Shown here in pieces: positions 910-56,032 of a stretch of DNA of 64,000 bases. The stretch is from Octopus sinensis (taxonomy: Eukaryota). Location of the stretch: positions 122,822,001-122,886,000 of the forward strand of contig NC_042997.1 of NCBI RefSeq assembly GCF_006345805.1, given 5' to 3'. The notes under the pieces are model-generated. The model was not told where the DNA came from and ran no database searches. It was given only the letters and a program-made list of their open reading frames with translations. Made by a program: the position numbers and the translations under genes. The stretch's first letter is position 1; each line of letters opens with the position of its first letter.

Positions 910-2415
910 CAACAATTGAGGGTAAAGTTAATTAGTTATTAATCAATTTCACCAGTATTCAGTATGTAAAAGGACCATTATTTTTTTTGAGTAAAACATT
1001 GTCTGAGAGAAATTTTCTTTAGGTAGTGGAAAAGGCTAAAAAAAACTTATTTGGCTGCTATTTCTAGAAAGTTCAGTATGTGGCAAAGTAATTTATTTAC
1101 TAGGCCCTAATTATATAATATTTTATATATACATACATACATACACACATACATATCACATACAATGCATACACACATATATACATATATACATATATAC
1201 ACACACACCACACATACTATATATATATTTCTTTACATACATACACACACACACACACATAATACATGCGTATATTCCTACTATACCCATACAGTTTCTA
1301 TACATATATACGATACACATATACAAGCGTGCACATACATATGTGAAATGTCTTAGGAGAAAAGGTAGTCGGGGGTGCTAGGGGAACGGTGGATTGTGGG
1401 GGTTTTGTGGGTGGGGTGTCATCAATCTGGTTGCCGGGTAGGTCTATAGTTCTTGTAGTTTGCATAATTCTTATGCATGCAATTTGGGGAGTGTTCTGAG
1501 ATCTTGTTAAGGAGAGGGCCTTTGGCGAACAAGATCTCTAGGCTCTCCGAAATGCGAAGGTCACAGCAGGTATGGCCTCCTGTGTACGAACGCGCCTTCT
1601 GTAGTAGTTTCCATTTGGTCTTGAAGGGGATGGAGTTCCTTTTAAGGTACCAGATGTGGGCGGCGAGGGTAGTTTGGTTGGATTTATCCGGTCGCCGGAA
1701 CGAGTGTTTGTGTGCGTACCAACGGGTCTCGGAAAAAGTAGGTATGTTAAGTTTTTTCACATTGTTGTTGGCTAGGTTCCTGGCTAGATTGGGCGTGGTA
1801 GAGTAGGAGAGTCTAATAGTGTTCTTATTTAGGATAGTGTAGTACTTATGTTGGGTGGGAAGTTGTTTCTGTAGGAGAGTGAAGAAGATTTTAGCTATAG
1901 GTGTAGCGACCCTCATTGTTGAAGGGGGTTGTACCAGCTAATGTGTCTTCGTCTATTTTCCTGGGTTGGCGTGGGGGCTATACTAGTATAGGTAATCTTA
2001 TCTTTAAAGCCACTGCGGGCAGGCCTCGTTGTAATAGGGGCTGCAGCCTTAAAGATATCTTCCGCGTGGGCGTTCAGGCTAGAAATTCTAATTGAACACT
2101 TTTTACTAGGTTATCTAATATATTTTTTGGGGGGTTGGATTAATATCTATATATCTAAGGGATTCAATTGGTTTTTGGTACGGGTAATAAAGTGAGGTTT
2201 TTAAGTCGAGGGTGACGTCAAGAAGTTAGCTTTGGTTAAGTTGGATTCTAAGGTAATCCTAAGGGCCTAAGTTTTTAAAGAAGGTGTAAAGATTTTTCCG
2301 GAAAATCCCGTGGTCCTGAGGTTTATTTTGTGGAGGGCGAAAAGGCCGTCATCCGCGTAAAGAACCACCGGAGAGGCCTGTGAATAGGGTTTTCAGCCAT
2401 GGAGGATGAAAGGCC
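910..2415 (-). mobile_element. Penelope-like retroelement, 5'-truncated and frameshifted (RT C-terminus plus endonuclease region)
   Basis: The minus strand gives LYADDGL (YADD at 2348-2359), LDVTLDL (~2200-2222) and WYNP (~1925-1937). ORF 1422-1916 then reads HKYYTILNKNTIRLSYS..PN, RWYAHKHSF, NQTTLAAHIWYLK, CDL..SE..I, LLNK..E...CMH, typical of PLE thumb/linker and GIY-YIG C-terminal regions. Confidence 0.85.
1422..1916 (-). pseudogene. PLE linker/endonuclease ORF remnant lacking the GIY-YIG core
   Basis: 164-aa ORF with PLE motifs; the expected Cys-rich and VY..YxG segment is missing at ~1737. Confidence 0.75.
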
Positions 2416-2816: not shown

Positions 2817-2860
2817 TATATATATATATATATATGTGTATATATGCGTGTATGTATATG
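2416..2860. repeat. Compound (TA/TG)n microsatellite, inverted copy of ~170-600
   Basis: The same ordered interruptions occur in reverse complement: CATGCATATACGTAAACGCTACCTCCCACAT (~508-538) vs revcomp of ATGTGGGTAGGTAGAGTTATACGTATGTGCATG (~2475-2507). Confidence 0.8.
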
Positions 2861-5800
2861 CCAACCGGCAGCAAGGGCCATGGAGACGGAGAACCCGGTG
2901 AAGAGGTAGAGGGAGGAAGAAGAACTAAAAGAAGGACTGGAAGAGCTAAAGGAAAAGAAAAAGCTCAAGCAGGACCAAAGTGTGAAACAACCAGAAATAG
3001 AAGTGGAACCGCAAAGGATGGAACCAAACAGCGCACACGGGTGTGTATGTTCTACCTGAGAGGTTCCTGCTGGCATGGAAAGGAAGGTGCAGGCTGCCGC
3101 TTTGCACATCGGGGACCCTGCCACAGAGACACGAGGCAGATGGACAAAACCATCAACACAAAGAAAAGGGATGGACCACGCACCACCTGCCCCAAAACGG
3201 AGGTACGCAGATGTTGTGCGCTCCACAAACAGCCAACATGATGTCGAAAGAGCAGCTGCTGAGCAACAATCTTTTTTGTGCATGGCACAAAAATTGTACA
3301 GCAGCTGACCTGGCTTCATCAAACCCAAGCCCGCAGGTGGGACTACCCACTATATACCAGACCACCACAGCAAACAGACACAGGATGGACACCGCCGGCA
3401 ACAACGTACACTCACCTCGATACTCCTACTGAACATCAGAGGACTGCAAACACTCAGTAACAGGACAAAGATCCCGTTCCTGAGAGACTTTGTTGCATGC
3501 AATCAAGCCTTATGCATAGCACTTACAGAAACGCACCTGAAACCGGACATAGCAGATGCGGAGTACACATACCACAGTATGCTGTACTACGGACCGACAG
3601 GAAAAGAAAGGAGTCATGGAGGTGTTGCTATGTACATCCGTGAGGACCTCACACCCCAGGTCCTCTTGTCATACTCAAACTCGGTGTGTGAACACACTAA
3701 TTGTACATATTAGGCAACTTGATGTAGTGGTGTGTGCTACATATCGCCCTCCAGATGCCCCAAGCCATGTGGGCAATTGTTTGAAGACTGCCTTATAAAA
3801 ATAGAAGAAATTCTAACCACATTAGAGCAACACATAGGTGTGCTTCTTATGGGAGACTTCAATCTGCCCAATGTCAGATGGCCCGAGGGCCTTTCTCTCC
3901 CAGGAATGACAAGATGTGAACGAGGACAGGCGAGGTCCCTCCTGAACCTCATCAACACCCTGTACATGGAGCAGGTAATACTCCAACCAACCGGGCAGGT
4001 AACACACTGGATCTCTGCTTCACAAATGACATGAATCTCATCCATAATGTGAAAGTGACACCGACACTACTCTCGGATCACAACATGATAGAGCTGACCA
4101 TGTACGGGCCAAAAGAAGCACGGACATGCAGCCTACAAGAAAACCCTCAAAATCTTCCAGCTTGAACTACCATAAGGAAAACTGGAAACAAATTGAGAAA
4201 GAGATCCTCAAACAAAACTGGCCTAAATGTCTCTCCTCGCCAGACATCGACGTGAAACTTCAACAATTCATGTCTGTAATGCAAGCCATATGCTACAAAT
4301 GTGTCCCAGAGAGAAAGGCCACTGTACACAAGAACAAAATCCCAGAGAGAGGAAAATTTTAATGAGACGGCGTACGAAATTTTCAAATCGCCTAAACAAA
4401 CAGATTGAAAGCAGTGAAAAGTCCCGCCTAAAAATAAAACTGTTGGAAATCGAAAAATGTCTGCAACTCTCCCCATGAAAAAGAAAGGCAGACAAAGAGC
4501 CTGGGCTATAGAAAACAAAATCTAACCCCAGAGCTTTCTACAGGTAGCCAAAGAAACAGCTACAGTGCACTGTAGAATAGGGCCACTCCTCGAAAAGGAT
4601 GGCACACTTAAGGAAAACCAATGAGGGAAGTGAAATACTGAATGAGCAATTCAAGAGTGTTTTCACTCCACCCCTTGGGCATCTCCAAATCACCAATCCA
4701 ACTGACTTTTTTAACCACTGCAGATATAAAATCAGAGGCGGCGACGATAGATTACATCGATATAAAGGAAGACGATGTAACCAAGGCTATAGATGAAATG
4801 AAAACAGACTCAGCTACTGGCCCCGATGGATTCCCGGCAATCCTCCTAAAAGCATGTAAGAGAGTCCTAGCAAGACCACTGCAGTTCCTCTTTCAGAGCT
4901 TCCTTGCAGCTGGCAAACTTCCAGGAAAACTGAAGAGGTAAAATATGCCCCATTCATAAAGGAGGTACACGAGCGGAAGCCAAGAACTATAGACCTATCT
5001 CTCTGACCTCACACATCAGCAAGGTCATGGAACGAATAGTCAGAAGAAGCTGATCACCTTCCTTGAAGAGAATGACTTGCTGCCCGACACCCAACATGGT
5101 TTTCCGACCAGGGAGAAGCTGTTTAACTCAGCTCCTACAACACTATGACTGGGTGCTGAAACGGCTGCTCAACCACTCAAATGTGGAAGTGATATATCTC
5201 GACTTTGCAAAGGCCTTTGATAAAGTCGATCATGGAATGATATGTCACAAACTGCGTGATCTCAACATAGTTGGAAAACTGGGAGAATGGCTTCATGACT
5301 TTCTGAAGGATAGAAGTCAGGTGGTAGTAGCCATTGGGCCACCTCCATTAACACACAAATAGTGAGCGGTGTTCCGCAGGGCACTGTTCTGGGACCACTA
5401 CTGTTCATATGGCCCTCTCACATGCCCTCACCCACGCAGAGAGCCACGATCACAAGTTATGCAGATGATACAAATTTTCACAGGCAATACAGAACCCTGA
5501 GGACACTAAACATCTGCAATGTGAGCTGGACGAAATATACAAGTGGGCTGAAAAGAATAGCATGCAGTTCAATGCTGGAAAGTTTCAAGCTTTATACTAT
5601 CAGCATGCAAAACTGAATGCAATACCCAATGAATACACTGGACCCGAGGGATTGCAATCCCAGAGGCACAATCAGTGCGTGACCTGGGTATTCACATGAG
5701 TGATGACGCGACCTTTCATGTACATGTTGCTAAACTGACAATGAATGTAGACGGCTGGCTGGATGGATTCTAGACCCTTTAGAACAAGAGAACAAAAAAC

Positions 5801-6448
5801 CATGATGGTCCTCTGGAAGACACTTGCCCTAAGCCACTTTGAATATTGCTTCTCAGCTATGGTCACCATCCAGTGTCAAGTTGATCACAGAACTTGAGGC
5901 GATCCAACGAAGCTACACAAAGAAGATAGCCTCTATGCAGAATGTAGCTACTGGGAAAGACTCAAGAGATTAAAATATTATTCTCTGGAGCGTAGGCGGG
6001 AAGATATGCCATAATATACATCTGGAAGATCCTGGAGGAAGTGTCCTGAACTTTGGCATCGAGAGTTACGCACATGCCAGAACTGGGCGCCACTGCGTGG
6101 TGCCTAGGACTCCAACCTGCCATCAAGATGTAGGACAAGATTCTGTGATAGCCTGGGCTTCCGAGGCCCACAGCTCTTCAATATCCTCCCGAAGAACCTG
6201 AGAGACCTGCATGGGGTGGATACAGATGTCTTTAAAATGAAGCTGGATCTCTTCCTGTCAGGTGTCCCAGATGAACCAACTTCACGGCAGGAGGGGCAGA
6301 TGAGGGCAGCTGCATCGAACTCTCTCATGCACCAAATAGCAGTTGCTAGAAAGCCTCCATGAAGTGAAACCAAGTAGCAACACCAAATGGCGGTGCCCCA
6401 GCATGGCCACAGCTCATAAGCTGAAACTAGAATCAATCAATCAATCAA
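2861..6448 (+). mobile_element. Non-LTR retrotransposon (APE-RT LINE, CR1/L2/Proto2-like group), near full length, multiply frameshifted
   Basis: The ORF1 fragment has a CCCH finger (3044-3109). APE motifs: IALTETHL, GGVAMYIREDL, YRPPD, MGDFNLP, SDHNMI. RT motifs: GPDGFP, NYRPISLTS, YLDFAKAFDKVDH, SGVPQGTVLGPLLF, YADDT. C-terminus GPQLFNILP..FKMKLDLFL..VPDEP..SNSL; (AATC)n tail at 6431-6448. Confidence 0.95.
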
Positions 6449-16921: not shown

Positions 16922-17155
16922 ATTTCTTTCTTTACTACCAAAAGTGGCTAAACACAGAGGGGGCCAACAAGGACAGACGAACGGATTAAGTCGATTACAT
17001 TGACCCCAGTGGGTAACTGGTACTTAATTTATCGACCCCGAAAGGATGAAAGGCAAAGTCGACCTCGGTGGAATTTAAACTCAGAACGTAGCGGCAGACG
17101 AAATACGGCTACGCATTTCGCCCCGCGTGCTAACGTTTCTGCCAGCTCGCCGCCC
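16922..17155 (-). mobile_element. SINE family C (Meta-domain-like)
   Basis: Revcomp GGCGGCGAGCTGGCAGAAACGTTAGC..GTCGACTTTGCCTTTCATCCTTTCGGGGTCGATAAATTAAGTACC; several copies in the window. Confidence 0.92.
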
Positions 17156-20102
17156 TCGTTTCAATTATTATCATTACCATTATCATCACATGCATTATTG
17201 TTGTTATTTGTGATGGTGGTGGTCACGATGGTAGATGTAGCTGTGGTTCACTGACTTTTGTCTTCACTTAACTTGTATGTTCCAGCTATCGTCATCATGA
17301 GAACCGTTAGTATTATTCTTGAATGTGGTAGTAGTTGTAGCAGTAGAAATACAACATTTAAGTATTATTACTATTATTGTTATTTCGAGTAATTTTAAGT
17401 ATTATTATTTTTTATTTAGCTTGGGCTGGAATTTATCAATAAAGTTCATTTCTCTAATTTATCTCACGATTCCACTTGGACTGTGTACTTTGTGGAATGT
17501 AAGTATTACAAATAATTTCCGACCACATCTTCCTACGAAATAGCAGTACATAGGAATTTTACTTGTCTTAAATTAAAGCATGAAACGATTGATACAGAGT
17601 GAATACTCTGCTTAGTGAATACTAAACTAGCACAGGAATGATAACCTACGTATCTTAGTTGTTGTAATTCTTATTATTGAGTAGGTAGAATATTCTTTAG
17701 ATAAATTGGAGTTGTCTCACTGTTTACTAACATATGGAAGCAATTAAACTATAATGCAGAATTACTTACACACGCACACACACACACATCGTCATTTATG
17801 TTTTTCCAAATTAGTTTCTCGATGTACAGCTGCATTTTATATTGTCTTCAGTTGATAAATCTGTGAATCTATATTTATATAAGCTATTTTGAAATATTGT
17901 ATGTTCCAAGAATAAATTTACAACATTAGTTAATAATAATTTGCCTGTGTTACTAGTGCAGCGTTCCTGTATTGCTAATGCATATCTCCCATTATTAGAA
18001 ATTGAATGTTAAATTGGTCACCTGATACGTGTGTTATCTTGAGAACAGAGACATTTTCCGAATTCTCCTCCCTGAAAGAATTGTTATAGATATCACATAG
18101 TACCATATTGTTCTGTTGAAAACAGTGCATAATATTACACACAAAACTTTTCCTCTTCCCGTTCTCACTTAATTTATTATGATTTTCGATTTACTAATGA
18201 ATGACTTATACATATTTTCTGGGTAGTAGTTCAAACCTGGAGCTATCGTCGGAGAGAACTTTTGAACACTCAAATAAGCTGATTTAATTATTCTAAACAT
18301 CTCTTGCACGATATCAATTTGAGGGAAACATCGAGTATAAATATTAATTGAATCCGATCGATAGCAGCAACAGCTAATGTGTATTTATCTGCAGTATTGT
18401 CGCATTAGAGAATTTTTTCCTTACATTTTTCGTATTGGAAAACAACGATGTACTTTGGATTTGTTGTCTTCACTGCTGCGTGATAATTAGATGAAGCATT
18501 CTGGATTGACACGTGTTGTCAAATCTGCAACAAACCTCATCGTAGAGTCTTAAAAGAAGAAAGACTAACAAGGTAATGATATTTTAAGTACAGGTGATTG
18601 TGTTTAAGTGGCTGTGAGATGATCTGTCACTCTTTGTCTCCAATTCATTATAAAATTGGTAATATTAAGTGACACATCTACCTGTCCTATTTGCCATTCT
18701 ATTTTCTAATTTATTACTTTCATCAGAACTTACTTGTCATTCTCTAATCACAACGGGTGAACCATCGCTAAAATTCAGTCTCATCATTCAAACTTTCATC
18801 ACAAATTTAATATGGACCACTTTCAATCATAATTATCATTACACACCTTATTCCTAACACTTCACACCTTTAAGTAATTTGTCTTTCTTCCCTTCAATGG
18901 AAGACAAAGTTATACAAATCACGTGGCAGGTCACAAATACGCGGTGCTCACATTCGCGTCTTAACTCACAGATTAACTGACAGAATTTGAAATTTAGAAA
19001 GCAGTTTTAATTAAATTACACACGTATTAAGACTGTACACATATGAATAGAATATCGAAATCACCACGTGCACTGATATAATTTCCTTTAGTTTTTGAAA
19101 TACATAAATATATATGTATACAAACATGCGTGCGCGCACTCACGCGTATATACAAGGGAGAAAAGGAATAAAAGATTCAGGACGAATAATTATGAGTATT
19201 CTGTAGGGGTCAAACTTGGCTAATTACATTACCCAGCAAAAGCCACTGTAATCCATCTTCGTCGTAGATTTTCATTCCACTGTCTGTAGAATGTGCAAAT
19301 TAAAAGTTCAAACACCGAATACTTTTCGTTTATAGATTATAGATTAGCGAATTACACATTCGTTAATAAGCTTACGCACTTTCGGACATATGGCATTCCA
19401 AAACTATCCAATGCAGTCATCATACATATTAATCCATTTAGTATTTGAGTAACTAAAATCAAACAGAAATCAAAGAGAGATATTTAATACCATCGTATCC
19501 TTATCAAAGCTATACCAATCTGCTTGGAACACGGAACATTTAAAAGGAAATAGTAAAATTAACAGCATTTGACCAGGATACGATATATTTCCACAAGGCA
19601 TTAGATGCACGTTAGTTTCTCTCCATTATTTTGTAGCGTACAACTTATCATAAACTACCCATTATCGGGTCTATCGTTACACTCTTTGACGTGCCAGGCA
19701 AAATTATTTGCAGAGAGTTTTCTTTCTTTACCATATTTAAATGAAAATACCTGATTTTATAATCTTTATTTAAACATCAATTGCGAAGGCACCTGTATAA
19801 CAAAAGTAAATATATTTTTAGAGCCCTTGACAAGCTTTTCGCACTGTCAAATAAATAAGTTATATAATTTAACGGGGATATATTATTGGCGGAAATCGTA
19901 GCAGCACATGATACTATGTTAAGTATGTTTAATAAAATGGATTTAAGTGGAGATCACATAATCACGTCTCTTTATCTAAATATAGAAAAAAATCGAATAC
20001 TTTAAGTAAATTTATCTGGAGCTTCAATGAAAAATATACTGTGTATAAATATGTAGTACACTACCGTATAATTGTAGCGAATATATTGAGAACTGATTAA
20101 CA

Positions 20103-23070: not shown

Positions 23071-24585
23071 GGTATTTGTGTGTATATGTGTGTGTGTCTG
23101 TGTTGTGTGTGCGCAAGTGCGTGTATGTCTGTGTGTATATCTCGTATGTGTGCATATATATACATATACATGTGTGTATTTGTGTGTATTTGTGTATGTG
23201 TTTGTGTGAGTATGTTTATGTGTGTATGTACATGCATACGCATTTTTTTAATATATATATGACTTTGTAACATCAAGGTTAGCGGGAAAATGTTTTATCA
23301 CCTACGAACTTATTCTTGAGTTGATTTAGATAATTTGAAATACACAGTGAAATTCATTTAATTTCCGTTAAATAAGATTCAAACGGTTCTTGTGCAGGAA
23401 ATAACTTCGTAAAATATGTTGAGAAAATAATAACATAATATTAAAACTGTAATACTCCAAGGAATCTTAAGTGCAAATTTGGGCAAGACAATTCCCACTA
23501 CAACCATAAATTTTGTCTATTGCCTCTAGTTTATTATATATGTTTCAGTAGTCATTCAAAATTGATTGACCGCTGCTAACCCGTAAAAATATGTACGCAA
23601 CATTTTTTTGGTTTTTTTATAAATTGTTGTTATTTAACGTAAAGCCAATGTTGTAATTTTGGACGCCTTTTTCTCAAACATGCATTGCTGAAAGAAAGTG
23701 TAACAACATAGTGACGAAAAACACCCCCACTTTTTGCCCAGATATTTTATTTTTCGTTCCACATCTAACAATGTTTTTTTAGGTTTCCACACACAATTAA
23801 CTCTACTATTTTCTATTTAACTGAAGAATAATCACAAACTTGTATCGAAATCGTTATTCTCTAAATACGTTAAACGTTAAAGTTATATTATTACTGCATC
23901 AATGATAATATATTTAGAAAAGCACACACTATTATTATGTCTGATGATCCAAGTGTGAATGTCTCCATAAAGTGTTAATCAACACTTAACAAGCGATCGG
24001 TCTTAACTCTAAACTCGTTAAATATCACATTAACCATCATTGATACATACAATGCCTGTACAAATGCGGTGAGGTTGCTATGCAGATAAAGCTATCGCAA
24101 CCAAAGAGAAAGCATTGCCGCTTATCACTCTCGCTGAAATACGGTTTCTTTACTATCGCCAATTAGATTATTTAGATTCTATAATCTGATTATAAAAGAA
24201 GAATTAAGATATAAATTGTCACCATATATTTAGTGATTCAGTTGACGCAGACTGAATCTGAAGAGATTGGTGCTGTTTATAGTTTTTGCTGTTATTATAA
24301 ACCAGCAGGATTTCTCTTTTGTTTTTAAACGTGAATTGCCTTTCTAGAATTATTTTTAGCTTTCCTGTTTGCTCAGTGTATCGAATAGTATACGTACTCT
24401 AGTCCTATATATAGGTTAATCCTAGTTTGTGTATGCTGCATCAGTATTTAAGAATATGTGTTTGCTGTAAAGTATCATTGCACATGTATCCTGCTTTTGT
24501 TAATATTTCGAGGTTACCTGGTTGAAATCATGCATCTTGTTTGGTTATATGGAATGGGTGACATCACAGCGATATAAGAAGAACA

Positions 24586-24817
24586 AAGGCGGCTATCTGG
24601 CAGAAACGTTAGCAAGCCGGGCGAAATGCTTAGCGGTATTTCGTCTGCCGCTACATTCTGAATTCAAATTCCGCAGAGGTCGACTTTGCCTTTCATCCTT
24701 TCGGGGTCGATTAAATAAATACCAGTTACTGGGGTCGATATAATCGACTTAATCCGTTTGTCTGACCTTGTATGTCCTCTCCGTGTTTCGCCCCGTGTGG
24801 GTAGTAAAGAAATTGGT
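24586..24817 (+). mobile_element. SINE family C (Meta-domain-like)
   Basis: Homologous to 16922-17155. Confidence 0.92.
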
Positions 24818-25821: not shown

Positions 25822-26320
25822 TAACTTAGATAACTTAGATATGTTTCGATCAAAGATCGGTCCAGGCCATGTCTAACTTAATAGCACCACCTGATAGGAT
25901 TATTCGAGTTTAAGTCAGGTTTTGTTCAAGTAGTGAGTTCTTGTTGGGTGAGTTGTATCCAATTATGGGTGGCTTATCTGGTATTCTTTGAAGGAATCTA
26001 TCCAGACTCCGTTTAAAGTTGATGGGATCCTTTTCCTCTTTGATCTCCCTCGGGACAATGTTAAATAGGGCAGGGCCTGTTGAGGAAAAGAAATTATATT
26101 GCAGTATACATGTATGTTGTGATCTTGAATTGGGCAGGGGACGTATGGCCCGTGGTCCCAGTCTTGGATGAACCTTGAAGCTAATGTTAAGGTCGTTTGG
26201 GCAAAGTTGGCGGTATATTCTCCACATCGTACAAATGATGTACCGCTCACGGCGACGCTGGAGGGAGTAAAGTTTTAAGGCTTTAAGGCGATTTGGCAAA
26301 AATGCTATCCTAAGGTTGAT
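25822..26320 (-). mobile_element. 3' fragment of an APE-RT LINE (same broad clade as 2861-6448, different family)
   Basis: ORF 25910-26326 reads RLKALKLYSLQRRRERY..GPALFNIVP..FKRSLDRFL..IPDKP..NSLLE; short tandem tail (TTATCTAAG). Confidence 0.9.
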
Positions 26321-29640: not shown

Positions 29641-30125
29641 ATGGATCAAGGTCTAGATTATTATTGGTGTCGCTCAAAAAATGCTCAATCTCTACACGGT
29701 CTCCAACACCGGCAACGCTACATCATTTGTGTTATGTGGAAAATATTTCATAAATATTGGACAAATGATGTTGACATCAATTTTAAAATTCATCCAATAC
29801 TTAACCCCTTGTTATCTACCCACTGCAAAAATCGATTTCGTTACATATAGCAAAGTTACGTCATGATTACTTTATCTGAACCGGTCTAGCACTGTTTGAA
29901 ATTATACAAACTAGGTCAAAACGGAGACGGATCCCATAAAATTCAAAAGATTACTACACAAATTTCTTCAAAAAACCTCGGACCAAACTTCTATGTTACT
30001 GGAGACACGGATATGTCTCCAACAATAATAATTATTTGCTAGAGTGGGTCATGGTGCCCTATATATGACTAAAAGACTTCACCAGTTGGTGCTATTAAGT
30101 TAGACATGGCCTCTCAAAGTTATCA
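29641..30125 (+). mobile_element. Older 3' fragment of the LINE family at 25822-26320
   Basis: LQHRQRYIICVMWKIF..NFKIHP; ends GGTGCTATTAAGTTAGACATGGCC, identical to the revcomp of ~25865-25888. Confidence 0.85.
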
Positions 30126-34070: not shown

Positions 34071-36595
34071 TCTAGAGTACTGTAGACTGGTCTCGCTATG
34101 TACCATGTAGAGTAAATGTTTAGATCGCTTATTTTTCACTTTGTGATATGAAAATAAACTGTATTGTACATATAACTGAAGATGACAGATTCCCTTTTCA
34201 AACGAACTCTCTGCGTGGTCAGTACCTCACGTCAATATATTTATGTATAATCTTTCACAAAATTATTCACTACTGAATGTTAATATTCTTTATCTCAAAT
34301 AACAATTTGCTTATCTTCTTTTAACAAAGACTGGGTGATGTTTTGACTTGTATTCTTACTTACGCCCCCTTTATCTTGTCTTTTAATATATTGCCGACCA
34401 GTACTTTTGTTCAGCGCTTCTCCCTTAATTTGTTTTGGAATTTTGCCCTTTCTTTTCCCATTTTCTCGGGTTTTTTCTCTTTATCTAAATTAACGTCAAC
34501 AAGTGCAGCTCCTTGTTTGTAGTTTATGAAATTCTTAAGTGTAAAGAAAAAAATGATTATTGCACTCCTGAACAGTCGTGTAGATGTGTGTCTTGAACAT
34601 ACTCTTTGTTTTTTCGTTCGTTTTCCTTTTGAAATTATCGTGTCGACAAGGTTTTCTGTAACGAGTCTCTATCATAATATTGTTTCCTGTCACCTGTCTG
34701 TACCATATTTTACATTTACATATTTTATATCTCATACATTTAACATAAAAAATATTTGGCATAACGTCAAGTAAAATAATTGCAAATCAGATCGCGGACA
34801 CATTCAAAACAATGATGATGTTTTCGAAAGGTTTTTGCTAGTGTAATTTCATTGTTTTTCTTTTTCTGCTCACTCCTACACATGTTGTATGATAATGAGC
34901 CAGACTAGATTCCTCAATGTATCCCTAGAGACACAGCAACATACCAATGCTGTTCTAAATATCTCCGGTCTCACGATTTCAAACCTCAAAAGAGAAGAGA
35001 AGCAGTACACAAATGATCATTCAATATTTCAATGAGAAAACGGAAATAAAACCGGACAAATCTGGAAACGCTTTAATACAAAAATCACAATTTTCTGCTG
35101 CATAGAAATATTCAATGACTCTGATGCTAAACAGAAGGAAACAACGGAATACACTGAATATAGCTGAGTGACATAGACATCGCTCAGACCCCTGAGCTAT
35201 AATCAATGCAATGTGTTGAGTATTTTATTTGGATTTTTGTTTAGTCAGTCGAAATCCATTAAATCTTTTGCAAATTTTCTTGTTACGTTGCAAAAGAATC
35301 TTAGAATATTTTAAAATAATAAAATAATAAAAATAAGGAAAAAAGTTGAAGCATACTTTTGTGAGATTGAAAACTAGAGAAAAACATTAATAACTAACAT
35401 CTTCAACAGCCACCTGTCATTCACTGGTCCCCAACCACATTTCCGTCTTTAGAGGCATTCTTGTTGAATACCAGGCTTATTATATGTATGATACTGCTTA
35501 AAAGATGTCTAGTGTTACGGTCTATAGAACCTTTACAGTTACGGTCTGGTATTTTCCATTCCGATGCTACAAAACTATATATTATGGCTGGCTCTGTAAA
35601 TGTGTTAATGGTATTTTTTCTAATTACATGGCTTTAGTATTGTTTTTTTTCTTTCTCACAAACTATTAATTTCTCGTTTATATTTGTATAGCTTTCACAT
35701 TCATACACTATTTTACTTTCCTCTATGCTAAAGTATTTCAGAGAGCAGAAATGTTAAGCTCTTGTATTATCTCTATGGAATTCCAAATCATCTGTCCGAA
35801 CAGCTAGTCTGCTTCATTGTATTGCGATTTTCCAGTCCAAAGAATATTTGAATGTCTCTGCTAAATTGCCTGACATTACAGCGTTGAGTCTCTACTAATG
35901 AATGATGATAGGTCAATCATGAAGAGATGTAAAATGAGCCTGGTCATACTTCTCTTCATACAGTTGCATAAATTAGATATCTTTAGTGATCTGACCTACA
36001 GAGAACTAACCTAAACAAAAGTAAGGTCAAGATATACAAACATCTATCAGTGTTTCAGTATATATCTGTATGAGAATATAGTTTACAATTATACCTTCGA
36101 TTAAGACTACAAGAACTGTAAATAATGTTTTCGATGATAGTTGAAAGTAATTCAAAATGTTATCCAAAATATGTGCATTTCCATTATCTTCATAAAAAAT
36201 ACATCCCAACCTAAATAAATGACATTTATGTAATCAATCAAGATATGAATTACATTATATTACAGTCTCTGTCTCATCGTCCTATACGACCATCCTGATA
36301 ATAGACCGCTCATTATAACACATCTCCTTGATGTACATCTATTCTACCCTTAGACATTTCCCGAATGAATTTTTAAAATTAAAAAAAAATCTGGATAATA
36401 GGGTGAAGAGCTGTTTAAAGGTCATAGTAGCAAATGGTGACGTGGCAACACTATTGGTTACCCTCTGTTCATTTTTCATTTTTAACAAATATTTGGTACA
36501 CCTAATAATACTTCGTCAGGAATATCCAATAAGAATTTGACAACTTTGTGTTTATTAGTATTATCTTTTACAAGAAGGTACCAATAAGTTTTATC

Positions 36596-37210
36596 GTTTA
36601 CTTGCTTTAGTCATTGACTTGCAGCCATCCTGGAGCACCGCATGAGAAAAGTTTGGTCGAACAAATCGACTCCAGCACTTATTTGTTTTAAAAAGATATT
36701 CTGTGACTTTTGCTGAACCGCTAGTTTACGGGGCATATAAACGCAAAAGCTGACAGTCAAGAAGTAGTGGGGTAAAAACAGAGCATTTTTCACCATTTTA
36801 GAAATCGGTCGATGTTTACAATAGTGTTCTTTATAAGGCTGACAGGGTGACTCAGGTTCTTTAACCCTCGACGACGGAGTAATGGGAAACCGAGGAAAAC
36901 ATATCAAATCTGAAATCAGCGCTGATATGACTTAATCTCGCTTGTCGTAAGGAAGGAGCCTGACTCCCTTGACAGCCGTTAGAAAAATGCTGTCACGTAG
37001 GTAAGAGCTGTTTTGACGCCTCCGACGAGAGAGTTCCTCATGTATGTCAGACGGGTTTCTTTAAGTTTCCATCTACCAAATACATTAGTAAGGCGTCGGT
37101 CAGCTCGAGGCTATATTATGAGACACTCGCCGATGGTGTCACGCTATGAGAATAAAATAAACGCAGCCATGTAGTTGGGAAGCAAATTTCTTATCATTCA
37201 GCCACACCAT
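36596..37210 (-). mobile_element. Degenerate SINE family B; head (37048-37210) and tail (36596-36780) are separated by ~270 bp of unrelated sequence
   Basis: Tail TTACTTGCTTTAGTCATTGACTTGCAGCCATCCTGGAGCACCGC; head-side GACGGGTTTCTTTAAGTTTCCATCTACCAAAT. Confidence 0.7.
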
Positions 37211-38989: not shown

Positions 38990-39620
38990 GGATTCTGTCA
39001 ATGAGCCACAATCTCCGCTGGTTTACTTGCTCATCACCGCTCAACTCATGGACACAAGCAATGATTCCTTTACCGAATCATTACTGGTGACGAAAAATGG
39101 TGCCTGTACATCAATATGATGCAGCGTAAAGAATGGCTTAGCCCCGGTAAACAAGCGACACCGCATAAAACGATATTGAGACTGGGAAGGGATTATCCAT
39201 TACGAATTACTTGAATGGAACCAAACGGTCAACGCGGAATTCTATGTCCAACAGATGGAACGACGCAACACGGCTATTCAAGAGAAAATACCTAATCGGT
39301 AGCATGGAGTTCTTCTGCTGCACTACAAGCCCCCACCCTCATATCAACAATATAACCAAGGAAGCCATTCAAACGCATGGCTGGGAAGTGCTGCCACACT
39401 TAACGTACTCGCCTGATTTGGCACCAACGGATTTCACCTCTTTCGGTCTCTTCCAAATGCTATGCGAGGAGTTTCGTTCAATAATGATGCAGACTTGAGA
39501 GCTTGGCTGGATCAATTTTTCGAGTCAAAATCGGGTGATTTCTACCAACGAGGCATCGAAAATCTTGTTGAATGTTAGGAAAAAGTTGTAAACAACAAGG
39601 GTAAATTAATTATTGATTAA
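38990..39620 (+). mobile_element. mariner (DD34D-type) transposase pseudogene, C-terminal catalytic part
   Basis: RIITGDEKWCLYIN, WEGIIHYELLE..TVNAEFY, WEVLPHLTYSPDLAPTDF, FYQRGIENL; frameshifted. Confidence 0.92.
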
Positions 39621-39675
39621 TTAGATGTTATTTTTTATTAAACATATAAAAACTTTTAAATTTGAAATATATATA

Positions 39676-39870
39676 TTTGTGCTTGTGTTTGTCCCTCTAC
39701 CATCGCTTAACAACCGATTTTCGTGTGTTTACGTATCGTAACTGAGCGGTTCAGCAAAATAGCCGATGGAATAAGTACCAGACTTACAAACAATATGTCC
39801 TGGAGACGATTTCTGCGACCAAAGGTGGTGCCCCATCATGGCCGCAGTCAAATGATTGAAACAAGCAAGT
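39676..39870 (+). mobile_element. SINE family B, 3' half
   Basis: GTGTTTGTCCC..AAAGGTGGTGCCCCATCATGGCCGCAGTCAAATGATTGAAACAAG. Confidence 0.85.
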
Positions 39871-39920
39871 GATAACTACAGTAACTACATAGAAAGAAAC
39901 AAATGCTCTCAAATATACTC

Positions 39921-40313
39921 TCTCTACTCTTTTACTTGTTTTAGTCATTTGACGGCGGCCATGCTGCAGCACCGCCTTTAGTGGAGCAAATCGACCCCAG
40001 AACTTATTCTTTGTAAGCCTAGTACTTATTATATCGGTCTCTGTCGCTAAGTTACGGGGACGTAAACACACCAGCATCGGTTATCAAGTGATGTTGGGGT
40101 GACAAACACAAACACACAAACATATACACACACATACATATATGTATACATATATATACAACGGGCTTCTTTCAGTTTCTGTACCAAATCCACTCACAAG
40201 GCTTTGGTCGGTCGGAAGCTATAGTAGAAAACACACCTGCCCAGGGTGCCACACAGTGGGAATGAATCCGGAACCATGTGGCTGGTAAGCAAGCTACTTA
40301 CCACACAGCCACT
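39921..40313 (-). mobile_element. SINE family B, near full length
   Basis: Reverse complement of 40626-41028, including the central TA/CA linker. Confidence 0.92.
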
Positions 40314-40625: not shown

Positions 40626-40780
40626 AGGCGCAGGAGTGACTGTTTGGTAAGTAGCTTGCTTACCAACCATATGGTTCCGGCGGCAGTGGCATCTTGGGCA
40701 AGTGTCTTCTACTATAGTCTCGGGCCGACCAAAGCCTTGTGAGTGGATTTGGTAGACGGAAACTGAAAGAAGCCCGTCGT

Positions 40781-40814
<34 letters not shown>

Positions 40815-41028
40815 ATGCGTGTATATTTGTGTGTCTGTGTTTGTCCCCCTAGAATTGCTTGACAACCGATGCTGGTGTGTTTATGTCCCCGTCACTTAGC
40901 GGTTCGACAAAAGAAACCGATAGAATAAGTACTGGGCTTACAAAGATTAAGTACCGGGTTCGAGTTGCTCGACCAAAGGCGGTGCTCCAGCATGGCCGCA
41001 GTCAACTGACTGAAACAAGTAAAAGAGT
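40626..41028 (+). mobile_element. SINE family B (tRNA head, CORE-like segment, microsatellite linker, LINE-like 3' tail), full length
   Basis: AGGCGCAGGAGTGACTGTTTGGTAAGTAGCTTGC..CTTGGGCAAGTGTCTT..GGCGGTGCTCCAGCATGGCCGCAGTCAACTGACTGAAACAAGTAAAAGAG. Confidence 0.92.
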
Positions 41029-41037
41029 AACGATGTT

Positions 41038-41270
41038 GAAGGTGACGAGTAGGCAGAATCGATAAGACGCCAGACAAGCTGCTTAGCGGCAATTCTTCCA
41101 TCTTTTCGATCTGAATTCAAATTCACCGAGGTCGGCTTTGCTTTTCATAGATTTGGGGGTTGGTAAATTAAGCAACAGTCAAGCAGTGGAGTTGACGTAG
41201 TCAACTTACCCCCCACCACACACACAGACACCAACATTGCTGGCCTTGAGCCAAAATTTGAAACCGATAT
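41038..41270 (+). mobile_element. Degenerate SINE family C
   Basis: GAAGGTGACGAGTAGGCAGAATCG..CTGAATTCAAATTCACCGAGGTCGGCTTTGCTTTTCAT. Confidence 0.75.
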
Positions 41271-45124: not shown

Positions 45125-45298
45125 TCTCCATGCGACTATTATGTTCATAATCAACCTTCAGCTATTTATTGTATAATGCATTCTATAACAAAATGTCGTT
45201 TGTTGCATAAACATAGATGCCTTGAAGATATAATGCTATGTGCAGACTACTGTAATTGTCAAAAGAAGCTTTGTTGTCATTGAGCTTCACTCTCACCG

Positions 45299-45515
45299 AA
45301 GGCGGCGAGCTGGCAGAAACGTTAGCAAGCTGGATGAAATGCTTAGCAATATTTCGTCTGGCTTTACGTTCTGAGTTCAAATTCCGCCGAGGTCGACTTT
45401 GCCTTTCATCCTTACTGGGTCGATAAATTAAGTACCAGTTACGAACTGGGGTCAATCTAAATCGACCGAAATCCTCCTCTAAAATTCGGGCCTTGTGTCA
45501 AGAGTAGAAACTAAT
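45299..45515 (+). mobile_element. SINE family C
   Basis: AAGGCGGCGAGCTGGCAGAAACGTTAGC..GTCGACTTTGCCTTTCATCC..GTCGATAAATTAAGTACCAG. Confidence 0.92.
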
Positions 45516-55660: not shown

Positions 55661-56032
55661 AAGGAGGCGAGCTGGCAAAATCTTTAGAACGCCGGGCGAA
55701 ATGCGTAGCTGTATTTCGTCTGCCGTTACGTTCTGAGTTCAAATTCCGCCGAAATCGACTTTGCCTTTCATCCTTTCGAGGTCGATTAAATAAGTACCAG
55801 TTACGCACTGGGGTCGATATAATCGACTTACTCCGGTTGTCTGTCCTTGTCTGCCTTCTCTATGTTTAGCCCCTTGTGGGTAGTAAAAAAGTAGGTATCT
55901 CGTCTGCCGTTACGTTCTGAGTCGAAATTCTGCCTAGGTCGACTTTGTCTTTCGTCCTTTCGGTGTCGATAAATTAAGTACAAGTACGTGCTACGAGTCG
56001 AGCTAATCGACTCACCGTCTCCCCCCAAATTT
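55661..56032 (+). mobile_element. SINE family C followed by a tandem partial second unit (dimer-like)
   Basis: Full unit at 55661-55895; from ~55896 the body TCGTCTGCCGTTACGTTCTGAG..GTCGATAAATTAAGTAC repeats with a different tail. Confidence 0.88.

What the first reader, a model, noticed from the sequence alone, without database searches (positions are those of the whole stretch)
6389..6448. Shared 3'-terminal motif with a covarying hairpin links two LINE families and SINE family B
Seen: the LINE end reads GGCGGTGCCCCAGCATGGCCA-CAGCT-CATA-AGCTG-AAAC. The SINE end (40978-41027, also 39820-39865 and 39930-39978) reads GGCGGTGCTCCAGCATGGCCG-CAGTC-AACT-GACTG-AAAC. The second LINE (minus, ~25840-25892) reads GGTGGTGC..CATGGCC..CGATC-TTT-GATCG-AAAC. 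The stem sequence changes while pairing is kept. Known: SINEs borrow LINE 3' stem-loops for RT recognition. Inference: this LINE clade mobilises family B, and the motif is the RT recognition element.
Basis: partly seen in the sequence, partly recalled or inferred. Interest (0 to 1): 0.7.

Follow-up and report, generated by a model that had tools for sequence, protein, structure and literature searches.

The report
Two-hairpin tail links octopus SINE, LINEs
In this animal genome (likely an octopus), a very abundant short jumping repeat (SINE) ends in the same roughly 40-base element, predicted to fold into two hairpins, as about ten families of longer self-copying elements (LINEs); it likely borrows the copying enzyme of a sister family with a matching tail rather than of either LINE in this window, and many LINE insertions consist of that element alone, which likely outlines the piece the enzyme grips.

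Summary
It folds into two adjacent hairpins: HP1 (GGYGGTGC..GCATGGCC, G.G mismatch) keeps its sequence, HP2 swaps base pairs; then AAAC and a family-specific repeat tail. About ten CR1-like LINE families and a tRNA/CORE-like SINE (about 270,000-330,000 copies, extrapolated) carry it; covariation over 12 representatives beat 500 of 500 shuffles. The quoted LINE2 stem is a private mutation of the window copy. The best partner match is outside the window: LINE-P has the young SINE's exact tail, AAG(TAAAAGAG)n, but is rare and younger than the SINE peak. Extra result: 16 of 30 HP2-anchored LINE1 ends are motif-only insertions starting at the HP1 base (SINE: 4 of 120), and 50 of 57 U6 joins found by one pattern land there, 9 with SINE-type ends. 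The scan noted such U6/7SL joins earlier on other DNA. A known kind of SINE-LINE partnership, with an unusual in vivo footprint; binding and trans-mobilisation are untested.

The parts
2860..6448 (+). LINE1 copy (family 1a, CR1-like), frameshifted: N-terminal CCCH/Torus-like zinc finger, AP endonuclease, RT, C-terminal domain (stop at 6360-6362), short 3' UTR
   Evidence: Pfam Torus E 2e-6 (just under its cut-off), Exo_endo_phos_2, RVT_1 pieces; frames; sister copies about 98% identical
6388..6409 (+). HP1 of LINE1: predicted 8-pair stem with a G.G mismatch and 4-base loop; sequence-conserved across families; its closing pair covaries
   Evidence: fold -18.0 kcal/mol, z -3.0 for the whole motif; pair table
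6410..6427 (+). HP2 of LINE1 (CAGCT-CATA-AGCTG) plus AAAC
   Evidence: all 5 HP2 pairs show changes on both sides across families
6428..6448 (+). LINE1a tail TAG(AATC)n, unlike the SINE tail
   Evidence: 30 of 30 loci L001-L030 end this way
40627..41030 (+). Full-length SINE B: tRNA-like head with A/B-box-like words, CORE-like segment, microsatellite, 3' body, two-hairpin motif, tail
   Evidence: sequence; window self-BLAST; CORE-like by eye against bivalve CORE-SINEs
40978..41030 (+). SINE B motif: HP1 40978-40997, HP2 CAGTC-AACT-GACTG 40999-41012, AAAC, tail AAG(TAAAAGAG)n identical to that of LINE-P
39668..39866 (+). 3' half of an older SINE B copy, motif 39824-39862
39925..40313 (-). SINE B copy on the minus strand, motif 39938-39976, HP2 partly broken
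36594..36745 (-). Old, decayed SINE B 3' end, motif about 36604-36642
25823..26292 (-). 5'-truncated LINE2 fragment (about 36% amino-acid identity to LINE1); motif 25843-25891 with long-loop HP1; tail ATATCTAAGTT
29662..30125 (+). Decayed LINE3 fragment; HP1 at 30085-30111, HP2 lost
   Evidence: tblastn; sequence

Best explanation
The shared end is a roughly 40-base element, predicted to fold into two hairpins, found at the 3' end of a whole CR1-like LINE clade and of SINE B; it likely is the handle that the clade's reverse transcriptase binds, and SINE B likely borrows that enzyme from families with its own tail type (LINE-P, earlier LINE6) rather than from the two LINEs in the window. Inferred steps: ORF2 would read HP1 by sequence and shape and HP2 by shape only, prime on the tandem tail at a nicked AT-rich target, and copy the RNA. 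LINE mRNA would often be trimmed from the 5' side back to the bound element, leaving an RNA of about 55 bases that is still inserted; this gives the motif-only copies. At a template's 5' end the enzyme would jump onto the oligo-U end of U6 or another Pol III RNA. SINE B's tail, whose LINE homology starts at the same point, likely arose by such a jump. Shown: shared sequence, covariation, tail identity, junction clustering, chimeras. Not shown: folding in vivo, binding, trans-mobilisation, RNA trimming.
For: Same predicted fold in 13 of 14 ends folded, the other a mutated old SINE copy. On 12 representatives: 92.3% of cells paired vs 82.9 shuffled, covariation score 0.389 vs 0.190 (0/500), slid controls 7.5-38%. 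The motif spans LINE1-group and LINE2-group families about 36% identical in protein, with relatives from other sources between them in the tree, and HP1 recurs in metagenome LINE L171. LINE-P (397 exact hits; about 67% aa to LINE1, one copy with a 489-aa open frame) ends in AAAC-AAG(TAAAAGAG)n like 40 of 67 young SINE ends. Older LINE6 has the same CAGCC stem and (TAAAAGAA)n, a unit seen in 4 of 12 mid-age SINE ends, none of which has the G unit. 16 of 30 HP2-anchored LINE1 ends start between 5 bases inside and 6 bases 5' of HP1; none starts inside HP2 or the HP1 loop or 3' strand, none at 31-100. Only 358 of 1,506 exact 1b motifs have the next 15 LINE bases. 50 of 57 U6 matches join at the HP1 edge, 9 with SINE-type ends. 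One SINE-head/motif chimera is flanked by a 17-base duplication (L295).
Against: LINE-P is rare (about 400 exact ends vs 270,000+ SINEs) and young (mean pairwise 1.2%, sample biased to young by the exact pattern), while young SINE subfamilies sit at a median 4.8-5.5% and only 2 of 60 copies are at 2% or less. No LINE-P end with the SINE's HP2 exists (0 hits), and the first 100 of 262 LINE-P ends show no older HP2 variant family. LINE-P and LINE6 are not shown to be sisters (open node). The SINE breaks the HP1 closing pair that all 10 LINE representatives keep. Motif-only SINE copies are rare (4 of 120). The covariation test uses related sequences and a structure derived from them; it is not R-scape. 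U6 also joins the tails of other elements, so jumping alone does not name a partner.
Confidence: 0.6

Rival explanations
1. Recognition is clade-wide and loose: any LINE1-group enzyme, including the abundant 1a/1b/1c families of the window, mobilises SINE B by reading HP1 plus AAAC, and LINE-P took its tail from the far more abundant SINE RNA by a template switch.
For: HP1 is nearly identical in SINE B and all LINE1-group families. LINE1-type ends number at least 5,935 vs about 400 for LINE-P. LINE1b (7.8% mean pairwise) overlaps the SINE peak better than LINE-P. The SINE tail can be derived stepwise within the SINE (T/A to G unit).
Against: Old LINE6 already has a TAAAAGA-type tail and the CAGCC stem, so that tail type is native to LINEs of the clade; LINE1-lineage tails differ from the SINE tail in all copies read.
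Confidence: 0.25
2. The motif-only copies come from abortive reverse transcription, not trimmed RNA: the enzyme lets go once it has copied the element it was bound to, and the AT-rich bases just 5' of HP1 anneal to AT-rich targets. This concerns the mechanism only and is compatible with the partnership.
For: Most junctions keep 1-6 bases of AAAT and lie in AT-rich or (TA)n flanks; SINE-type ends also break there in U6 chimeras.
Against: SINE B has AAA at the same place, yet only 4 of 120 copies stop there vs 16 of 30 for LINE1; an enzyme-intrinsic stop should affect both. AT-rich LINE sequence 20-40 bases further 5' collects almost no junctions.
Confidence: 0.35
3. The tail is a relic: SINE B took it long ago and is now mobilised by an unrelated LINE clade (Tx1 or RTE type) that ignores it.
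For: Earlier scan notes describe an abundant SINE in this genome with a Tx1-like tail (not checked, probably another SINE). LINE-P is too rare and young to explain the SINE peak alone.
Against: HP1 and a paired HP2 persist from old to young SINE subfamilies, and SINE-type ends share the LINE breakpoint in U6 chimeras.
Confidence: 0.07
4. The element is a small self-cleaving ribozyme that cuts at its own 5' base and releases the minimal RNA.
For: Sharp 5' boundary; hairpin-hairpin-GAAAC order recalls hammerhead topology (recalled).
Against: No CUGANGA core or partner strand for GAAAC in any family. No ribozyme family among 116 Rfam hits at E up to 1 in the window. Junctions spread over about 12 bases rather than one bond.
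Confidence: 0.04

Closest known systems
Stringent SINE-LINE pairs of bivalves: BivaCORE-SINE1 and BivaV-SINE2 with CR1-14_CGi (Nishihara 2016, PMC4824008, passages and supplement file 2 excerpts); CR1, CR1-Zenon, L2, Nimb partners (Martelossi 2024, PMC11481361, passages)
   Same: tRNA head, CORE-type centre, 35-61 base LINE-shared 3' end, stem-loops with compensatory changes, CR1-group partner
   Different: The tail sequence differs (ATGGCC occurs once in the searched supplement file, in a SINE head). Here there are two hairpins conserved across about ten coexisting LINE families, and motif-only insertions are not mentioned in the passages read.
Octopus CORE-SINEs OR1/OR2 (Ohshima and Okada 1994; paper not seen, cited in PMC4758252 and PMC4824008 passages)
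   Same: Octopus tRNA-derived CORE-SINE; SINE B is probably one of these families
   Different: Identity not tested: no OR1/OR2 sequence was available. No LINE partner is named in the passages read.
Eel UnaSINE1/UnaL2 and zebrafish ZfL2 (recalled; cited in PMC4476161 passages as the stringent model)
   Same: RT binds a 3' stem-loop shared by SINE and LINE; priming on short tandem repeats
   Different: L2 clade, experimentally proven, single conserved stem-loop (recalled); here CR1-like, two hairpins, untested.
U6/L2 and U6/Mon-1 chimeras of platypus, U6/AnolisSINE2 (Doucet 2015, PMC4476161, passages)
   Same: U6 joined to a short LINE end or to the partner SINE, explained by template switching; short or absent target duplications
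   Different: Here the joins fall at one structural boundary shared by several LINE families and the SINE, and the same boundary gives many stand-alone insertions.

Membership tests
Stringent SINE-LINE partnership | SINE 3' end homologous to a LINE 3' end | tested here: met
   about 40-base motif plus, for LINE-P, an identical tail
Stringent SINE-LINE partnership | Conserved stem-loop with compensatory changes | tested here: met
   6 of 13 pairs with changes on both sides, score 0/500 shuffles; relatedness caveat
Stringent SINE-LINE partnership | Overlapping activity of SINE and partner | tested here: inconclusive
   Clade spans the SINE age range, but LINE-P itself is younger than the SINE peak
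Stringent SINE-LINE partnership | Trans-mobilisation depends on the stem-loop | not testable with these tools
   needs a retrotransposition assay
CORE-SINE (OR1/OR2) | tRNA-derived head with A and B boxes | tested here: inconclusive
   A/B-box-like words seen by eye (box consensus recalled); ARAGORN found no tRNA gene in the window
CORE-SINE (OR1/OR2) | CORE domain after the head | tested here: inconclusive
   by-eye match (CCTTG.GCAAG...CTT) to BivaCORE-SINE1 text; no scored alignment
CORE-SINE (OR1/OR2) | Identity to the OR1/OR2 consensus | not testable with these tools
   source papers and SINEBase supplements not held
CR1-group LINE | AP endonuclease plus RT in ORF2, tandem-repeat 3' end | tested here: met
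CR1-group LINE | RT phylogeny with named CR1/L2/Crack/Daphne references | tested here: inconclusive
   tree has no named references; the label CR1-like rests on recalled motifs; solved L1 and R2 proteins match only weakly
U6/LINE template-switch chimeras | U6 sequence joined co-directionally to a retroelement | tested here: met
   Rfam U6 in 4 of 4 loci scanned; 57 joins
U6/LINE template-switch chimeras | One target-site duplication around the whole chimera | tested here: inconclusive
   no clear non-microsatellite duplication in the 57 U6 loci; one clear 17-base case for a SINE-head chimera
Hammerhead or other Rfam ribozyme | Catalytic core or covariance-model match | tested here: not met

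The most novel reading that the evidence does not exclude
The enzyme-bound two-hairpin element survives LINE mRNA decay as a protected RNA of about 55 bases that is itself a complete retrotransposition substrate. Thousands of motif-only insertions are therefore an in vivo footprint of the recognition element, and template jumps that weld this fragment to U6 and tRNA-type RNAs are the route by which SINE B, and new SINEs, get a tail cut exactly to the recognised element.
Probability: 0.4. Interest if true: 0.72.

Novelty: new variant of a known kind. Interest (0 to 1): 0.5.

Why it matters
It assigns a candidate LINE partner clade to one of the most abundant repeats of an octopus genome, where SINEs make up about 11.6% of the related annotated genome (PMC13282606, first third read). 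It also defines a compact, naturally mutagenised recognition element: about ten families keep HP1's sequence and swap HP2's pairs. The motif-only copies and Pol III chimeras make a long-standing question directly testable, namely how SINEs acquire LINE tails of just the recognised length. If the partner is simply a CR1-like LINE, the partnership alone is an ordinary new member of a well-known kind.

Tried and rejected
First metagenome scan with the single C-terminal protein: 144 pattern hits, none confirmed. Second scan: 80 loci, mostly more distant CR1/L2-like elements; only L171 showed the motif in the part of the output I could see, which was cut. The idea that L109 was a second SINE family with a LINE1 tail was dropped: its sister hits are motif-only insertions with unrelated flanks. 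A CAGCC-NAAT-GGCTG 'intermediate family' gave 53 scattered hits, read as double mutants of the SINE; these loci were not fetched. No LINE-P upstream joined to a SINE-type HP2. Ribozyme: rejected. The pooled de-duplicated LINE count (n=65, and hence n=125) wrongly merged 11 identical long copies, so I use the per-set counts. Some junctions scored at 9-30 bases are chance extension into AT-rich flanks. Ohshima 1996 was not held and SINEBase supplements and file 1 of PMC4824008 were unreadable, so a prior report of this pairing cannot be excluded. Searches that showed no such report in their listings: partner; breakpoint.

Full report
Observation. The three quoted ends are present. The 19-base core occurs 5 times in the window against 0.01 expected. 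The LINE at about 2860-6448 is a frameshifted copy with a CCCH/Torus-like finger, AP endonuclease and RT. The closest named protein relatives are from Argonauta, so the genome G000 (2.72 Gb) is likely an octopus. 'CR1-like' is my label from recalled motifs; the tree has no named references.

Of 14 ends folded, 13 gave two adjacent hairpins; the exception is a mutated old SINE copy (z -1.0 to -4.3). HP1 (GGYGGTGC..GCATGGCC, G.G mismatch) is almost invariant in sequence; HP2 changes sequence; AAAC and a family-specific tandem tail follow. On 12 representatives (11 from G000, one metagenome LINE), 92.3% of cells pair against 82.9 in shuffles, the covariation score is 0.389 against 0.190 (0/500), 6 of 13 pairs change on both sides (6/500), and slid controls pair at 7.5-38%. 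All 5 HP2 pairs and the HP1 closing pair covary; 4 HP1 pairs never vary and so say nothing. The sequences are related and the structure came from them, so this is support, not proof. The two SINE rows break the closing pair.

Families. From position-ordered pattern hits, 120 evenly spaced 10-kb stretches and U6 chimeras I found LINE1a, 1b, 1c, 1d, LINE5, LINE6, LINE-P, LINE2, LINE3 and 3b; 1d was seen only as an end. Exact genome-wide counts: 1a motif 1,432, 1b 1,506, LINE1-type HP2 5,935, LINE2/3 5,492, LINE-P 397. The LINE1 group, LINE-P, LINE6 and Argonauta proteins form one clade (100/100); LINE2/3 lie far outside it at about 36% identity. Metagenome LINE L171 keeps HP1 with swapped inner pairs, and several relatives' proteins end in GG.PW-type peptides that may be read-through of the motif (inference). 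SINE B gave 120 HP2-anchored ends and 145 bodies in 1.2 Mb, about 270,000-330,000 copies if extrapolated; the sample covers large contigs only.

Partner. The window's LINE1 ends in TAG(AATC)n (30 of 30) and LINE2 in ATATCTAAGTT. LINE-P, found through U6 chimeras, ends in CAGCC-GGAT-GGCTG-AAAC-AAG(TAAAAGAG)n, the tail of 40 of 67 young SINE ends; 0 of 19 mid and old SINE ends have that unit. Old LINE6 (4 of 20 fetched ends have LINE body, about 80% identical to each other) has the same stem and (TAAAAGAA)n. Against a simple assignment: LINE-P is rare and young (1.2% mean pairwise), young SINE subfamilies sit at a median 4.8-5.5% and old ones at 15%, no LINE-P end carries the SINE HP2, and LINE-P and LINE6 are not resolved as sisters. 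Tail capture from SINE to LINE-P stays open.

Motif-only insertions. In samples taken without regard to upstream sequence, the 5' junction clusters at the HP1 base. Counting junctions from 8 bases inside to 8 bases 5' of HP1: HP2-anchored LINE1 16 of 30 (0 inside HP2 or the HP1 loop and 3' strand, 1 at 9-30, 0 at 31-100, 13 beyond); 1b 15 of 30 plus 4 at 9-30; 1a 6 of 30; LINE2/3 4 of 30; LINE-P 2 of 10; LINE6 11 of 20 (loci chosen by me by loop and tail); SINE B 4 of 120. The first three sets share 14 loci. Genome-wide only 358 of 1,506 exact 1b motifs carry the next 15 LINE bases (mutation in those bases lowers the count somewhat). Motif-only copies carry the loop and tail variants of the LINE subfamilies, so they were likely made afresh from LINE RNA rather than amplified as one mini-family. 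An enzyme blocked by a hairpin would stop on its 3' side, whereas the junctions lie on its 5' side; this fits RNA trimmed back to a bound element, or release after copying it.

Chimeras. A pattern of the U6 3' end followed within 30 bases by GGTGC found 57 places (control 0); Rfam confirmed U6 in 4 of 4 loci scanned. By my reading, 50 join at the HP1 edge (9 with SINE-type ends, the rest LINE families) and 7 join the SINE B 5' start; two LINE-P loci are a local duplicate. A broader pattern listed 100 of 238 rows, 67 distinct places by my hand count: 28 at this motif, 19 at the SINE B head, 20 elsewhere (these 20 were judged by eye only). Joins to the SINE's 5' start with a few extra bases fit template jumping, which for R2 RT needs non-templated additions (PMC8857657, abstract). 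L295, a SINE-head fragment fused to the motif, lies within a 17-base duplication; the U6 loci showed no clear non-microsatellite duplication. SINE-type ends breaking at the LINE boundary are the best independent sign that the SINE passes through this machinery. I found the chimeras before the look-up; the scan had noted them on other DNA (e1-9504912, e1-9505443).

Comparison. It works like a stringent SINE-LINE pair, as argued for bivalve CORE- and V-SINEs with CR1-14_CGi (PMC4824008, passages, supplement file 2 excerpts) and more widely in bivalves (PMC11481361, passages; 'octopus' occurs 0 times). SINE B is probably OR1 or OR2 (PMC4758252 and PMC4824008 passages; consensus not available). 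U6 chimeras with stringent LINEs and their SINEs are known (PMC4476161, passages). An O. vulgaris annotation lists 13 recently active CR1 families (PMC13282606, part 1 of 3). PMC10294476 and PMC3531059 (passages) added background only. My searches showed no report of this pairing or of a truncation spike at a 3' hairpin base, but the library lacks key subscription papers and some supplements.

Verdict. A new instance of a known partnership, with a clade-wide two-hairpin element and a sharp junction footprint as the new variant. Interest 0.5.

Noticed in passing
LINE families: The motif-only share seems to rise with family age (1a 6/30, LINE-P 2/10, 1b 15-19/30, LINE6 11-16/20): loss of long copies, or later re-mobilisation of short ones; unexplained.
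   Followed up: partly
L251 (rc 1547), L255 (1508), L304 (1501), L295 (rc 1501): tRNA-like or SINE-head fragments ending in a T-run fused directly to the minimal LINE1 motif; candidate newborn SINE structures.
   Followed up: partly
L300, L335, L396, just 5' of the motif: A partial HP1 copy (..GTGCCCCAGC) precedes the full motif, as if the enzyme jumped between two motif RNAs.
   Followed up: no
G000 U6 list, (C1:192676065, C2:60762139, C3:80175910): Three U6 copies share the same 3' flank and may be the true U6 genes; several others join tails of unrelated elements.
   Followed up: no
window 1400-2410 (-): Decayed reading frames that look like a Penelope-type element with a GIY-YIG-like end (label recalled, not scanned).
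   Followed up: no
window 39169-39600 (+): Fragment resembling a mariner-type transposase C-terminus (recalled; no Pfam hit) next to an inverted pair of SINE B copies at 39668-40313.
   Followed up: no
window 16927-17160, 24582-24812, 41038-41208, 45297-45466, 55661-56015: A second abundant SINE family (family A) with a Deu/Nin-like centre (recalled); one copy starts right after the SINE B tail at about 41038.
   Followed up: no
proteins P0007, P0009, P0028, P0029, P0034, P0074, P0089: ORF2 C-termini end in GG.PW / GGPP peptides, suggesting that the HP1 motif lies in frame in many relatives from other sources.
   Followed up: partly
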